A stretch of 64,000 bases of DNA from an uncultured Chloroflexia bacterium. Lineage in GTDB: Bacteria > Chloroflexota > Anaerolineae > JAAYZQ01. Under the pieces are notes generated by a model. That model was given only the letters and a program-made list of their open reading frames with translations. It searched no databases and was not told the origin of the DNA. This document shows positions 19,274 through 27,129 of this stretch, piece after piece. The DNA lies in NCBI GenBank assembly GCA_963700285.1, contig CAVOXA010000001.1, positions 320,001 through 384,000 of the forward strand, given 5' to 3'. Made by a program: the position numbers and the translations under genes. Within the stretch, counting starts at the first letter, position 1. Every line of letters begins with the position of its first letter.

Positions 19274-20692
19274 GTGGGAACACTGATCGTCAAGTTTGGC
19301 GGTACCTCGGTCGGTAGCGCCGAGGCCCTTACTCAGGCATCTGGTATTGTGCAGGCACAGGCCAGGGACTGGGATCGCCTGGTGGTGGTCGTCTCGGCCA
19401 TGAGAGGGGTGACAGATTCCTTGATCCGTGGCGCGCGTACGGCTGCTTCCGGCGACGATCAAGTCTATCGATCTACGGTCACGGATCTGCGCGTACTCCA
19501 CTATCGGGCCGTGGATGCCCTGCTCCTTTCTGACAGCGAACGCACCCAATTGCTGGCGAGGGTAGACGAGTACCTGGACGAGTTCTCCGCTTTTTGCCAC
19601 AGTGTCTACATTTTGGGCGAGGCCACGTCGCGGGCCATGGATGCAGTCACCTCGTTGGGTGAGCGGATTAACGCACGCCTCATGGCTGCTCTGCTGCGCC
19701 AGGGTGGCCTGCGCAGTGAGGCTGTGGATGCCACCGCGGTGATCGTCACCGACGATACCTTTCAAAACGCCGTCCCGCTGATGGAGGCCAGCCGAACTCA
19801 GGCTTCCGCACGTCTGGGCCCGTTGTTAGACGAGGGCGTGGTGCCGGTCGTGACCGGTTTTATCGGAGCCACGGAGAAGGGTATCACGACGACCTTGGGG
19901 CGGGGCGGCAGTGACTATAGCGCGGCGATTCTGGGGGCTTGCCTGGACGCCGATGAAGTCTGGACCTGGACAGACGTGGACGGTGTGATGACGGCTGACC
20001 CGAATATGGTAGCGGAGGCGCGGGTGATCCCTACGCTTTCGTACAGCGAGGTAGGCGAGCTTGCCTACTTTGGGGCCAAGGTGCTGCATCCGCGGACCAT
20101 CCGTCCCGTCGTGGAGCGTGGCATTCCACTCCGGGTCAAGAATACCTTCAATCCGGCCTCTCCTGGTACCCGCATTGTCCGCGAGCCGGAAAGCACGCCT
20201 GGGACCGTCAAGGCGGTGACTGCCATCAAAGGCCTGAGCCTGGTGACGGTGGAGGGTCGAGGTATGATGGGGGTACCGGGCATCGCTGCACGTACTTTTT
20301 CGGCGGTCGCCAGTCAGGGCACCAGCGTGTTGATGATCTCCCAGTCCTCGTCGGAGCAGTCTATCTCATTTGTCATCCCTATGGATGCGGTCGTACCAGT
20401 GGTCAAGGCCATTGAGCGAGAGATGGCCTTGGAGCTGGCCCGACGGGACATAGATCGTGTCTGGTCGCTGGACGATGTGGTGATCGTGAGCGCGGTGGGA
20501 ACGGGCATGCGTGGTACTCCAGGTGTTGCTCAGCGCATCTTTGGCGCACTGGGTGAGGGGGATATCAATGTGATCGCGATTGCCCAGGGTTCATCAGAAT
20601 GCAGCATATCGCTCGTGGTCAAAGCCGAGGCTGCGGTCGACGCCGTGCGAAGGATTCACGATCAGGTGCTGCTTATCAATGGAGTATCTTGA
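19274..20692 (+). CDS. lysC: Aspartate kinase (monofunctional, two ACT domains)
   Basis: KFGGTSV, VVSAM, TLGRGGSDYSA, DVDGV, SQSSSE; GTG start with AGGAGG RBS. Confidence 0.92.
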   Translation: MGTLIVKFGGTSVGSAEALTQASGIVQAQARDWDRLVVVVSAMRGVTDSLIRGARTAASGDDQVYRSTVTDLRVLHYRAVDALLLSDSERTQLLARVDEYLDEFSAFCHSVYILGEATSRAMDAVTSLGERINARLMAALLRQGGLRSEAVDATAVIVTDDTFQNAVPLMEASRTQASARLGPLLDEGVVPVVTGFIGATEKGITTTLGRGGSDYSAAILGACLDADEVWTWTDVDGVMTADPNMVAEARVIPTLSYSEVGELAYFGAKVLHPRTIRPVVERGIPLRVKNTFNPASPGTRIVREPESTPGTVKAVTAIKGLSLVTVEGRGMMGVPGIAARTFSAVASQGTSVLMISQSSSEQSISFVIPMDAVVPVVKAIEREMALELARRDIDRVWSLDDVVIVSAVGTGMRGTPGVAQRIFGALGEGDINVIAIAQGSSECSISLVVKAEAAVDAVRRIHDQVLLINGVS

Positions 20693-20715: not shown

Positions 20716-21849
20716 ATGAAGAACTATGGCTACGCATCCGTCCAGGAATTCCTCGACGATCGTATTGTCTATCGAAACCTGGTACCCTCTGATCCCCGGT
20801 TGCCACCGGTGTCAGAGGTGCGCCGGAAGATAGGGTTGCCACCTGGCCTGGTCCCGCGCAAAACTGCACCAGAGTACGCCCAGGTCATCGTCCATCTGCT
20901 CCAGCAGGCGCGGGCTCTCGATATGCCTGGCATCCCTATCCAGCGCCTGGTCTACGTAGGCGACACACCCATGAACGATGGAACGGCATTCACAAATATC
21001 AGTGATGCGGGAAACTGGCCGGGTCTGGCCTTTATTGGTTCTGATCGCGATGAACCGGCTCGCGTGGAACTGGTCGAACGTGAGAGGGGGATGCTCTACG
21101 TGGCGAACCGCTGGGGGGCGCTCTCGGACTTTCGGCAGTTCTGTCGCGACCGGAGCTTTCCGGTGGACGAGGGGACGGCCGTCATTGTTGACCTGGACAA
21201 GACGGCCGTGGGGGCGCGAGGACGCAACGATCATGTCATCGATCAAGCCCGTGTTGAGGCTGTGCGCCGGACGGTTGGCGATCTGTTGGGCGATGAGTTT
21301 GACCCGGAGAGCTTTCAGACAGCCTATGACTGCCTGAACCAACTCGAGTTCCACCCGTTCACCGCCGACAATCAAGACTATTTGGCCTACATCTGCCTGA
21401 TCTTGGGCAGTGGCCTGTATTCATTGGACGGCCTGGTGGCCGACGTGCGGGCGGATCGGGTGGCAGCCTTTCAACAGTTTATCGCTAAAGTGGACGATCA
21501 GGCTGGCGAGTTGCCTGCCAGTCTGCGGCAGATACACAGCGACATCCATGACCGTGTGTTGCAAGGCGATCCGACCCCTTTCAAGGCGTTTCGTTACACA
21601 GAGTATCTGGTCACAGTGGAAAAGATGGGTTGGTTGGCGGAAAGTGCAACGATTGATGCGTTGCTTGCGGACGAGCTTGTCATCACACAGGAGGTGCGAG
21701 AGACGGCACTGACCTGGCTTGGCCAAGGGGCATTGCTCTTTGGTCTCTCGGACAAACCTGATGAGGCATCCATCCCGACCAGTGACCTTGCCGCTCAAGG
21801 ATACCGGCCGATCCACCGAATGGATACTCGCGCTGTAGGAACTGTATGA
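20716..21849 (+). CDS. Hypothetical 377-aa protein, circularly permuted HAD-like
   Basis: YVGDTPMND (res 80-88) precedes VIVDLDKT (res 156-163); FGLSDKP near the C-terminus; GGGAGG RBS. Confidence 0.7.
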
Positions 21850-21934: not shown

Positions 21935-23257
21935 ATGGGCTACAATAGCTGGCTCGAATGTGTCCGCGGCTGCGGCCGTCGATACTCCATCTATGATGTG
22001 GTCTATCGCTGCGAGGATTGCGGTGGCTTGTTGGATGTGGAGCACGATCTGGACGCACTCAAGGATCGCAGCGCCGCTGACTGGCGACAGCTTTTTGACC
22101 GCCGGATACGGACCAATGAGTGGCCCTACGGGAGTGGTGTATGGGGCAAGAAGGAGTGGGTCTGCCCCGAGGTGGCCAACGACAACGTCGTCTCGATGTA
22201 TGAGGGGCACACCAACTGTTTCTGGGCAGAGCGCCTTGGGAAGGAGATCGGCGTGTCCGACCTTTGGGTCAAGCTGTCGGGGAATAGCCACACCGGTTCC
22301 TTCAAAGACCTGGGGATGACGGTGTTGATCTCTGTAGTACGGCAGATGATGGCTGATGGAAAACCGATTCGCGCCGTCGCCTGTGCATCCACCGGTGATA
22401 CCTCGGCAGCGCTGGCAGCCTACGGCGCTGCTGCTGGCATCCCTACGATCGTGTTTCTGCCCCGTGGCAGAGTCTCTACCGCCCAGTTGGTACAGCCCAT
22501 CGCGCACGGCGCGCTGGTACTGGCGTTGGATACCGACTTTGATGGTTGCATGCGCATTGTGCGCGAGGTCACCGCAGATCAGACCATCTACCTGGCAAAC
22601 TCGATGAACTCGCTGCGGATGGAGGGACAAAAGACAGTCGGCATTGAGATAGCTCAGCAATTCGATTGGCAGGCTCCGGACTGGCTCATCATCCCAGCGG
22701 GCAATCTGGGCAACGTTAGCGCCCTGGGCAAGGGACTGCTGATGATGCGGGAATTGGGTCTGATAGATAGGCTGCCGCGCATTGCCTGCGCCCAGGCGGC
22801 CCACGCCAACCCCCTCTACCTCAGCTATCTCACGGGCTTTGAAGAGTACATGTCTGTGTCCGCGGCCGAGACCCTGGCCACCGCCATCCAGATCGGTGAG
22901 CCGGTGAGCTATGAGCGAGCTGTCAAGGTGCTGCAGGCCTTTGACGGCGTGGTCGAGCAGGCTACCGAAGATGAACTGGCCAATGCTGCTGCTGCTGCCG
23001 ACCGTGCGGGCCTGTATAGTTGTCCTCAAACCGGTGTGGCTCTGGCGGTACTGGATAAATTGATTGCTCGTGGAGAGATTCTGCCTGAACATCGCGTGGT
23101 TGTCATCTCTACTGCCCATGGCCTCAAGTTCACTCGCTTCAAGGTCGGATATCACGAACAAGCACAGGTGGAAGTCGTGGCCCAGCACGCCAATCCGCCG
23201 GTGGAGCTGCCGGCTGACACCAGATCTGTGCTCCGGGCCATCGAGCAGGCTCTTTGA
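21935..23257 (+). CDS. thrC: Threonine synthase
   Basis: [30 protein letters not shown]. Confidence 0.93.
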
Positions 23258-25424: not shown

Positions 25425-27129
25425 ATGAGACTGACAGGAGCACAAGCGGTCTGGGAGAGCGTTGTGCGTGAAGGTGTCGACCTGATCTTTGGGATCTCGG
25501 GTGGAGCCGTGATCCACCTGTATCACGCCTTGCCCGAATTCCCCATCCGTCACGTGCTTACGCGTCATGAGCAGGGTGCGGCTCACGCTGCTGATGGTTA
25601 CGCTCGGGCCACGGGCAAGGTTGGTGTCTGCATTGCCACCTCTGGCCCTGGGGCTACCAACCTGGTCACCGGTCTAGCGACAGCACAGATGGACTCTTCG
25701 CCCATGGTGGCCATCACCGGGCAGGTCGTGACGCCTCTCATTGGCACTGATGCCTTTCAAGAGACGGACATCACGGGCATCACCATGCCTATCACCAAGC
25801 ACAGCTACCTGGTCACCGACGTCGAGGACATACCGACCGTGATGAAAGAAGCCTTCCACATTGCCAGGAGCGGCCGGCCAGGCCCGGTGCTCGTCGATAT
25901 CGCCAAGGATGCCCAAGCTGCCGAACTGGACTATGTATACCCCGACGACGTGTATCTCCCGGGGTATCAGGCTGCCCGATTCGGACCTGTCCGCCGAAAT
26001 CGAGGAGATGGCGCGGATGATCGACGAAGCGAGTAGACCGCTGATCATCGCTGGGCATGGTGTGATCCTGGCAGGGGCCGAGGATGCGCTGCTCCAATTG
26101 GTTGAGCGGGGTAAGGTACCGGTGATCACCACGTTGTTGGGCATCGGGTCCATGCCGGAGATGCATCCGCTTTGCCTGGGCATGGCCGGGATGCATGGCG
26201 AGGCGTACACCAATCTGGCGATATCGGAGGCAGATTTGCTGATCTCCTTGGGCAGCCGCTTCGACGATCGCCTCACCGGACCCGTCAGCCAGTTCGGAGA
26301 GCATGCGCGCATCGTCCACGTGGATATCGACCCCGTCGAGATCGGCAAGACGGTCTGGCCGGATCTGGCGCTGGTGGGCGACCTGAAAGATGTTTTGCCA
26401 GCGCTTGTTCCGCTGGTTGGGAATGGCGGAGACGTGGACGCGCGCCGGCAGGGGCGGGAGGAGTGGCTGGCTCGCATCCAGGAATGGCGTGGAGAGTCGG
26501 CCAAGCGGGACATCGTGGAGCAGGAAACCGACGAAATGGTGCCCCAATACGTCATACGCCAACTGTGGGAAGCGACCCGCGGCGAGGCGCTGGTAGTCTC
26601 GGATGTTGGGCAGAACCAGATGTGGGAGGCGCAGTACTTTATCCATCATCGCAGGCGGGGGCTGCTTTCCTCCGGCGGTCTGGGTACGATGGGTTTTGCC
26701 CTTCCAGCGGCCATCGGCGCCCAAATGGGACGCCCTGATGAGCTGGTGTGGGTTACCGTGGGCGATGGCGGGTTTCAGATGAATATCCAGGAACTGGCGA
26801 CTGTTGCCCAGGAAAAGCTGCCCATCAAGATCGCTATTCTGAACAATGGCTACCTGGGGATGGTGCGCCAGTGGCAGCAGTTGTTCTTTGAAGGGCGCTA
26901 TTCCGGAACACCGCTGTTGGGACCGGATTTTGCCAAGGTTGCCGAGGCCTATGGCATAGCCGGTATCACAGTCCGGAATAAAACCGAGGTCGTGTCGGCC
27001 ATTAACGAGGCCAACTCTATTGAGGGACCTGTGTTGTTGGATTTTCTCGTTGAGCAGGAAGAGAACGTCTATCCCATGGTTGCCCCCGGTGGTCCTGTTC
27101 ACGATATGATCCGCCGACCGAGACCTTAG
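25425..27129 (+). CDS. ilvB: Acetolactate synthase large subunit; +1 frameshift near 25968
   Basis: N-half ([14 protein letters not shown]) and C-half ([24 protein letters not shown]) are in different frames; removing one base at TATCAGGCTG restores PGYRLPD. Confidence 0.9.

What the first reader, a model, noticed from the sequence alone, without database searches (positions are those of the whole stretch)
20716..21849. Circularly permuted HAD protein in the thrB slot: candidate new homoserine phosphorylating enzyme
Seen: the gene sits between lysC and thrC, and the window has no GHMP- or APH-type homoserine kinase and no hom. HAD-like motifs occur out of order: K49 (motif III-like), YVGDTPMND 80-88 (motif IV), VIVDLDKT 156-163 (motif I, DxDxT), then a long segment that could be a cap, then LFGLSDKP near the C-terminus (motif II-like). 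Established: the canonical order is I-II-III-IV, and Pseudomonas ThrH is a HAD that phosphorylates homoserine by phosphotransfer. Inference: a permuted HAD supplies O-phosphohomoserine, or acts as a phosphoserine/phosphohomoserine phosphatase.
Basis: partly seen in the sequence, partly recalled or inferred. Interest (0 to 1): 0.8.

Follow-up and report, generated by a model that had tools for sequence, protein, structure and literature searches.

The report
Permuted HAD enzyme replacing homoserine kinase
An unnamed, strongly conserved gene family of Chloroflexota bacteria sits in threonine-synthesis operons, almost never shares a genome with the usual homoserine kinase gene, and carries phosphatase-type (HAD) motifs in rotated order, so it likely supplies that missing step by a predicted, untested phosphate transfer.

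Summary
Window 20716-21849 encodes a 377-aa protein with no Pfam, NCBIfam or PDB family match and at least 3,452 homologues, mostly Anaerolineae. Its four HAD-like motifs lie in the order III-IV-I-II and are nearly invariant in 279 homologues. The fold model is confident (pLDDT 97), and the HAD likeness is supported, but only by weak matches (Z under 8); motif convergence in 3D could not be measured. Function evidence is strong but indirect. Of 301 genomes of the class, 137 carry the gene and 113 carry thrB; only 2 carry both (51 expected). Carriers keep hom (131 of 137) and thrC (79 of 80) and almost never have another homoserine kinase type. The typical operon is hom-lysC-asd-X-thrC, with a threonine T-box in 11 loci, and one lineage has a LysC-X fusion. 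Best reading: a homoserine phosphotransferase acting through phospho-Asp159 (0.78); the phosphate donor is unknown. No enzyme test exists. This scan reported the same family and reading four times before on other DNA. My paper searches found no description of it.

The parts
19274..20692 (+). lysC, aspartate kinase with two ACT domains; upstream operon partner
   Evidence: PF00696 E 1e-52 and ACT domains; TIGR00657 424 bits; start codon chosen by inspection of the ORF
20716..21849 (+). Gene X, 377 aa: unnamed family, inferred circularly permuted HAD-fold homoserine phosphotransferase
20854..20862 (+). P47-R48-K49, motif III-like lysine before helix 52-69
   Evidence: K49 in 275 of 279 homologues; aligned to the HAD K-P motif by hhalign at only 9% probability
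20953..20979 (+). YVGDTPMND 80-88, motif IV (GDxxxxD; predicted Mg2+ ligands D83 and D88) at the end of strand 77-82
   Evidence: signature as defined in PMC8475336
21181..21204 (+). VIVDLDKT 156-163, motif I (DxDxT; D159 predicted nucleophile, D161 predicted acid/base) at the end of strand 154-159
   Evidence: homologue P0228 matches PF00702 from this point
21229..21675 (+). Residues 172-320: all-helical insertion after motif I, in the C1-cap position, with near-invariant R179, T216-x-D218-N219-Q220-D221, F292-R293-x-x-E296 (inferred substrate site)
   Evidence: secondary structure; conservation
21736..21759 (+). LFGLSDKP 341-348, motif II-like (S345) at the end of strand 340-344
   Evidence: S or T in 278 of 279 homologues
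21935..23257 (+). thrC, threonine synthase; consumes O-phosphohomoserine
   Evidence: TIGR00260 206 bits against cut-off 167; PF00291

Best explanation
Gene X encodes a conserved, unnamed enzyme with HAD motifs in rotated order that likely replaces homoserine kinase, making O-phosphohomoserine for ThrC by a predicted two-step phosphate transfer through Asp159. Shown: the motifs, their conservation, the operon position, the threonine T-box in related operons, and the near-complete exclusion with thrB. Inferred from HAD chemistry (PMC8475336): D159 attacks a phosphorylated donor; Mg2+ is held by D159, D161 and D83/D88; S345 and K49 steady the phosphate; the helical cap (172-320) closes over the site. 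Its conserved Arg and Asp/Glu residues would grip the carboxylate and amine of an amino acid, so homoserine rather than water would take the phosphate from phospho-D159. The donor is not shown. I commit to an amino-acid phosphate rather than ATP, most likely phosphoserine as in ThrH; beta-aspartyl phosphate from LysC is the close second. The chain is inferred to be cut between the third core strand and the motif III lysine, with the old ends joined by the hairpin and helix at 110-150.
For: Profile over the same 301 class genomes (300 at least 90% complete, plus G000 at 89%): X 137, thrB 113, both 2, neither 53; 51 expected in both if independent. By family: 35 with X, 22 with thrB, 5 with both, 6 with neither, of 58; 13 expected in both (my tally, tested). 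In three mixed families (f9, f14, f49) the X genome lacks thrB while relatives have it. Phylum sample: 13 carriers outside the class, none with thrB. Carriers keep hom (131 of 137) and thrC (79 of 80 tested). HomK is over cut-off in 1 of 301 genomes and APH-type ThrB in 0 of 301. All 6 X-less genomes of family f20 and the one of f52 carry ThrH. Five well-assembled genomes with neither gene have only borderline or no thrC matches (best 173 bits, against 198 or more in the 79 carriers with a match). Context: same strand and within 6 kb of lysC 49, asd 46, thrC 45, hom 7, any of them 61, of 80 loci; X directly follows asd, lysC or hom in 20 of 20 further loci. A T-box lies upstream of the X operon in 11 loci, with the Thr codon ACC read in 10. 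An in-frame LysC-X fusion appears in 4 records of one cluster. Fold: pLDDT 97.4, with each acidic or hydroxyl motif at the end of a core strand. Homologue P0228 hits PF00702 over cut-off, residues 145-353 against profile 3-142. HAD 6iah aligns to model 154-373 from its own residue 1 (Z 6.8, rmsd 4.0, 149 aligned, rank 2). The N-terminal half's top row of 48,161 chains is HAD 2o2x (Z 5.7, rmsd 4.8, 97 aligned). Coevolution ranks motif IV strand with motif I strand (parallel, nominal p 0.012) and N-terminal strand with C-terminal strand (p 0.008) highest of 28 strand pairs.
Against: There is no biochemical or genetic test. All structural HAD matches are weak (Z under 8, tied with unrelated alpha/beta folds), and hhalign against 9 HADs gave about 9% probability with no gain from rotating the alignment. 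The coevolution p-values are uncorrected, with an effective depth of 185. Thirty-six of 301 genomes have hom but no X and no detected kinase of any known type, so a thrB gap is not always filled by X. Two genomes have both X and thrB (G182, G246). Eight of 80 carriers also have a ThrH match (6 over cut-off). Nineteen of 80 loci have no same-strand pathway gene within reach, some because contigs are short. Related genomes are not independent, so the genome-level statistic overstates. The T-box search was seeded with three Thr T-boxes and favours them. The window itself has no T-box. In thrB genomes thrB lies beside thrC (10 of 20), not behind asd, so this is not a swap in the same slot.
Confidence: 0.78

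Rival explanations
1. X is a HAD phosphatase, for example a SerB substitute or an O-phosphohomoserine or aspartyl-phosphate phosphatase, and does not make O-phosphohomoserine in vivo.
For: About 80% of HAD enzymes are phosphatases (PMC8475336). X has the full DxD pair. ThrH itself is both phosphatase and transferase (PMC1079889).
Against: A phosphohomoserine phosphatase needs a kinase, yet X excludes thrB (2 of 301). A SerB role gives no reason to exclude thrB or to sit under a Thr T-box between asd and thrC.
Confidence: 0.09
2. X does replace ThrB but is not descended from HADs by permutation. It is a separate flavodoxin- or receiver-like alpha/beta fold with convergent acidic motifs, possibly using ATP directly.
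For: Foldseek gave no match at E 0.001 or better for the whole model or the N-terminal half. Most top VIA rows are non-HAD alpha/beta domains spanning model 45-345. No unpermuted relative was found among the 271 proteins then held.
Against: All four HAD signatures are present with the right local structure. Motif IV matches the published GDxxxxD form. A homologue passes the PF00702 cut-off, and four HAD-clan Pfams appear among weak member hits. Two distant homologues are named 'YigB (HAD superfamily)' by their source. Order-dependent aligners are expected to miss a permutation.
Confidence: 0.07
3. X is an accessory or regulatory protein of the aspartate pathway, and the exclusion with thrB mainly reflects shared ancestry; these organisms use a kinase not yet recognised.
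For: The tightest links are to lysC and asd. Thirty-six genomes have hom and no detected kinase or X. In some lineages the cluster lies behind a SAM riboswitch (L113, L120).
Against: Exclusion holds within three mixed families and outside the class. The catalytic-type residues are nearly invariant. X-less members of two X-rich families carry ThrH.
Confidence: 0.06

Closest known systems
ThrH of Pseudomonas aeruginosa, phosphoserine:homoserine phosphotransferase / phosphoserine phosphatase (TIGR02137)
   Same: HAD-type enzyme that makes O-phosphohomoserine without ATP, presumably through a phospho-enzyme (PMC1079889 passages). This is the mechanism inferred for X.
   Different: X has no match to TIGR02137 or any NCBIfam model. 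It is 377 aa against a 203-position model, has motifs in the order III-IV-I-II and a roughly 150-residue helical cap, and can co-occur with ThrH.
HomK / ThrB2 / BT2402 (TIGR02535)
   Same: Non-orthologous ThrB substitute found by operon position and complementary distribution, later confirmed by thrB complementation (GapMind 2026; PMC9026213).
   Different: [quoted passage not shown] Over cut-off in 1 of 301 genomes here.
ThrB homoserine kinases, GHMP type (TIGR00191) and APH type (TIGR00938)
   Same: The same pathway step is inferred for X.
   Different: ATP-dependent kinases of other folds; no sequence match to X; nearly mutually exclusive with it.
C1-capped HAD phosphatases (PF00702, PF13419)
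   Same: DxDxT, S/T, K and GDxxxxD signatures, and a helical insertion right after motif I.
   Different: Motif order is rotated; X itself scores no Pfam HAD match; the cap matches no solved structure convincingly.
CheY-type receiver domains
   Same: HADs and CheY share a Mg2+ site and phosphate-binding residues in a non-sequential relation (passage in PMC10400377). A HAD cut where X is inferred to be cut would have the receiver-like strand order (topology recalled, not measured).
   Different: X keeps the HAD DxD, a large cap and a lysine before the first core strand. No receiver domain appeared among the listed fold matches, which is inconclusive.

Membership tests
HAD superfamily | Motif I DxDx(T/V) at the end of a core strand | tested here: met
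   D159-L-D161-K-T163 at the end of strand 154-159; 278, 278 and 276 of 279
HAD superfamily | Motif II S/T at the end of a core strand | tested here: met
   S345 after strand 340-344; S or T in 278 of 279
HAD superfamily | Motif III conserved K/R | tested here: inconclusive
   K49 in 275 of 279 and weakly aligned to HAD K-P. K162 and K347 are also conserved, so the assignment needs coordinates.
HAD superfamily | Motif IV DD, GDxxxD or GDxxxxD | tested here: met
   G82-D83-x4-D88; 279, 277 and 278 of 279; definition from PMC8475336
HAD superfamily | Canonical sequence order I-II-III-IV | tested here: not met
   Order is III-IV-I-II in X; no reversed-order relative among 271 proteins. Hence filed as a permuted variant, not a canonical member.
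HAD superfamily | Rossmannoid core with the four motifs meeting at one site | tested here: inconclusive
   Alpha/beta core predicted; HAD rows at Z 6.8 and 5.7; weak coevolution; model coordinates not available
HAD superfamily | Mg2+-dependent phospho-aspartate intermediate | not testable with these tools
   needs biochemistry
ThrH (TIGR02137) | Score above the TIGR02137 cut-off (223 bits) | tested here: not met
   No NCBIfam family at E 1 or better; no match in the own genome
ThrH (TIGR02137) | Phosphoserine:homoserine phosphotransferase activity | not testable with these tools
   needs an enzyme assay
ThrB GHMP (TIGR00191) or APH type (TIGR00938) | Family HMM match | tested here: not met
HomK (TIGR02535) | Family HMM match to the phosphoglycerate-mutase-like model | tested here: not met
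Non-orthologous ThrB replacement (functional class) | Complementary distribution with thrB in genomes that keep hom and thrC | tested here: met
Non-orthologous ThrB replacement (functional class) | Clustering or co-regulation with thr genes | tested here: met
Non-orthologous ThrB replacement (functional class) | Rescue of a thrB mutant | not testable with these tools
   needs a complementation assay

The most novel reading that the evidence does not exclude
X is a natural circularly permuted HAD with receiver-domain (CheY-like) strand order that phosphorylates homoserine using beta-aspartyl phosphate, the product of its neighbour and occasional fusion partner LysC. Donor and product are near-isosteric four-carbon amino acids, so one cap site could serve both half-reactions. 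LysC plus X would form a new ATP-driven route to O-phosphohomoserine, feeding threonine and, in lineages where a cystathionine gamma-synthase-like gene leads the cluster, possibly methionine.
Probability: 0.2. Interest if true: 0.88.

Novelty: new variant of a known kind. Interest (0 to 1): 0.68.

Why it matters
GapMind 2026 lists thrB among the four steps behind most remaining pathway gaps: it is missing in 16 of 208 prototrophs. Its main text and six supplementary files do not mention Chloroflexota or Anaerolineae by the terms I searched. If X is the enzyme, 137 of 301 sampled genomes of this class, plus at least two further families of the phylum, have a complete threonine pathway that annotation tools now show as broken. 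That bears on predicted auxotrophy in sludge, sediment and soil communities. It would be a further independent solution to homoserine phosphorylation, beside the two ThrB kinases, ThrH and HomK, and one complementation test would settle it. For structural biology it offers a natural permuted HAD with a cap unlike solved structures.

Tried and rejected
Sequence searches of the PDB with the protein and with alignments A1, A2 and A3 gave nothing significant; the best HAD row was 2hcf at E 0.34. The retroviral capsid rows there (E 0.1 or worse) are chance. Foldseek found nothing at E 0.001 or better for the whole model or residues 25-152, and listed no HAD. The VIA second look at Foldseek's chains gave only generic alpha/beta rows. 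No receiver domain appeared in any listed fold rows; that absence is inconclusive. Profile comparison with 9 HAD_2 proteins of the own genome reached about 9% probability at every rotation tried, so it does not test the permutation. The ESM Atlas gave three unnamed clusters at 0.98 and HAD clusters only at 0.76-0.77, which are leads only; residues 150-377 gave no usable named hit. The apparent asd-X fusion in L021 is an assembly gap of Ns and was rejected. The apparent second copy of X upstream in many loci was asd, joined by my clustering. SerA as a test of the donor was inconclusive: full-length SerA is over cut-off in 57 of 80 carriers and not in G000, but 21 of the other 23 have shorter SerA-like matches. 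The gene context of the distant 25-35% homologues was not obtained, because the alignment was too diverse for the locus scan. No complex prediction was run, since no binding is claimed. Ridder and Dijkstra 1999 and one recalled HAD/receiver paper were not held. Paper searches that found no description of the family: (0 papers with Anaerolineae + threonine + homoserine kinase). Most subscription journals are outside that library.

Full report
OBSERVATION. Window 20716-21849 (+) is a 377-aa ORF between an aspartate kinase gene and thrC, at the end of a same-strand run of aro-like genes (those names are from my reading of the translations). It has no Pfam hit better than E 0.12, no NCBIfam hit and no PDB sequence hit. 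The genome (G000, 89% complete) has no match over cut-off to thrB, APH-type ThrB, ThrH or HomK; the weak matches are other enzymes. hom lies on another contig.

FAMILY. The protein search returned 3,452 homologues among the 7,998 candidates scored, named only 'hypothetical protein' where named, from Chloroflexota/Anaerolineae records. The 50%-cluster library gave 351 representatives, of which the best 150 were listed, down to about 28% identity. In GTDB genomes, 241 stretches encode a relative and 80 were kept; 77 of their titles are Chloroflexota, the others a Gemmatimonadota bin, a Thermotogae bin and an unclassified bacterium. Of 301 aligned rows with under 25% gaps, 279 remained at 95% identity. 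In these the HAD-like residues are nearly invariant, as is a second set: R20, R48, R170, R179, T216, D218, N219, D221, R293, E296. A distant subgroup changes K162 to N/Q/H and often K347 to R but keeps D83, D88, D159, D161 and K49.

FOLD. AlphaFold2 on a 122-sequence alignment gave pLDDT 97.4 and pTM 0.93. Strands 77-82, 154-159 and 340-344 end in motif IV, motif I and motif II; K49 precedes helix 52-69; residues 172-320 are almost all helix and follow motif I, where a C1 cap inserts. Motif definitions are from passages of PMC8475336. Homologue P0228 matches PF00702 just over its cut-off with its second half against the first three quarters of the profile; 2 of 122 members hit that family. The wide structure search aligned HAD 6iah from its residue 1 to model residue 154 onward (Z 6.8, rank 2). 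The separately folded residues 25-152 (pLDDT 94.6) had HAD 2o2x as top row (Z 5.7). Both scores are below the tool's threshold of trust and tied with unrelated folds, and Foldseek found nothing. Coevolution weakly supports pairing of the motif IV and motif I strands and closeness of the two termini (nominal p 0.012 and 0.008 among 28 strand pairs, uncorrected). I put the permuted-HAD reading at about 0.88. From recalled topology, a HAD sheet 5-4-1-2-3 cut between strand 3 and the motif III lysine becomes 2-1-3-4-5, the flavodoxin/receiver order; a passage of PMC10400377 notes the non-sequential HAD/CheY relation.

GENE CONTEXT. In 80 loci, X is on the same strand and within 6 kb of lysC in 49, asd in 46, thrC in 45 and hom in 7; 61 have at least one and 19 have none. 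The fullest form is hom-lysC-asd-X-thrC, which is pathway order with X where homoserine kinase acts. In 20 further loci that I chose for family spread, X directly follows asd, lysC or hom every time. Rfam found T-boxes upstream of the X operon in 3 of 11 loci scanned and none in 10 others. A profile seeded with those three found one upstream of the X operon in 11 of the 120 loci searched, with specifier ACC (Thr) read in 10. Two loci carry a SAM riboswitch upstream instead: L120 (metX-lysC-hom-asd-X) and L113 (a cystathionine gamma-synthase-like gene, lysC, asd, X); L117 has the same kind of gene before lysC-X. The window has no Rfam match. Four records of one Anaerolineaceae cluster, from three sources, hold LysC and X in one frame.

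DISTRIBUTION. The same 301 class genomes were searched for X and thrB: 135 X only, 111 thrB only, 2 both, 53 neither. Kin are not independent; at family level, 5 of 58 families contain both against 13 expected, and in three of those five no single genome has both. hom is found in 131 of 137 carriers and thrC in 79 of 80 carriers tested. HomK passes its cut-off in 1 of 301 genomes, a carrier, and APH-type ThrB in none. ThrH matches 8 of 80 carriers tested and 7 of the 53 with neither gene, including all 6 X-less members of family f20. Of those 53, 10 lack hom, 7 have ThrH and 36 remain unexplained; five well-assembled ones have only borderline or no thrC matches. In a 151-genome phylum sample, 15 carry X, 13 of them outside the class, and none of those 13 has thrB. 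In 20 thrB genomes, thrB lies beside thrC in 10 and never beside asd or lysC.

MECHANISM. The profile and context point to the homoserine-to-O-phosphohomoserine step. The motifs point to a HAD phospho-aspartate cycle in which homoserine accepts the phosphate, as described for ThrH (passages of PMC1079889). The donor is open. My rough split of the 0.78 is phosphoserine 0.3, beta-aspartyl phosphate 0.25, other donors 0.23. The aspartyl-phosphate idea rests on the lysC/asd linkage, the fusion and the likeness of donor and product; pathway-order operons explain the linkage equally well, and the SerA test did not discriminate.

KNOWN WORK. GapMind 2026 (passages and Appendix 3 of the preprint; term search of six supplementary files of PMC13759103) confirms HomK and states that thrB is still missing in 16 of 208 prototrophs; I did not see the list of those genomes. 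PMC9026213 (passages) describes ThrB2 and 50 genomes lacking both isozymes. Other papers were seen only as search listings. Four earlier notes of this scan describe the same family with the same reading on other genomes. They are not independent support; I took the T-box lead from them and tested it here.

VERDICT. A real, conserved, unannotated enzyme family. It works like ThrH by inference but is not a member of that family, and it is best filed as a new permuted variant of the HAD superfamily that likely replaces ThrB. Interest 0.68.

Noticed in passing
window 25425-27129: The acetolactate synthase large-subunit-like gene is split over two overlapping ORFs (25425-26036 and 25861-27129), likely a frameshift or sequencing indel.
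   Followed up: no
G000 C9:346691-347789 (L081) and C4:85817-88283: The genome's hom is broken into two frames, and a second lysC-asd pair on C4 is also frameshifted. Several such breaks suggest assembly indels.
   Followed up: partly
L001 and L024: One closely related MAG holds two copies of this aro-lysC-X region; in L024 lysC is truncated, X is frameshifted and thrC is missing.
   Followed up: no
P0255, P0256, P0258, P0260, P0233: Distant homologues (about 28-31% identity) carry 230-430-residue N-terminal extensions with no Pfam match. Their gene context is unknown and they may do something else.
   Followed up: partly
P0167: One protein fuses X to a C-terminal JAB/desampylase-like domain. 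From recall, Mec of the sulfur-carrier route from O-phosphohomoserine to homocysteine is a JAB protein. It is a single sequence and may be a read-through artefact.
   Followed up: partly
L113 2285-7466, L117 2273-6091, L120 32-7429: X clusters led by methionine genes or SAM riboswitches: SAM-CGS-like-lysC-asd-X, CGS-like-lysC-X, and SAM-metX-lysC-hom-asd-X. O-phosphohomoserine could feed methionine there, as with plant cystathionine gamma-synthase (recalled).
   Followed up: partly
L039 9620-10828 and 10 other loci; L013 8846-9955 and 3 others: Genes resembling glycine C-acetyltransferase (11 loci) and threonine dehydrogenase (4 loci) recur on the opposite strand near the operon (names recalled from sequence, not scanned).
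   Followed up: no
L022 7148-7618 and related loci: A small hydrophobic ORF of about 156 aa recurs near X; its cluster spans 22 loci.
   Followed up: no
36 of the 301 class genomes (for example G185, G064, G290): These have hom but no X, ThrB, APH-ThrB, HomK or ThrH. The few checked have only borderline thrC matches and may be threonine auxotrophs.
   Followed up: partly
L004, L010: Close homologues (71% and 64%) in records titled Gemmatimonadota and Thermotogae; could be transfer or mis-binning.
   Followed up: no
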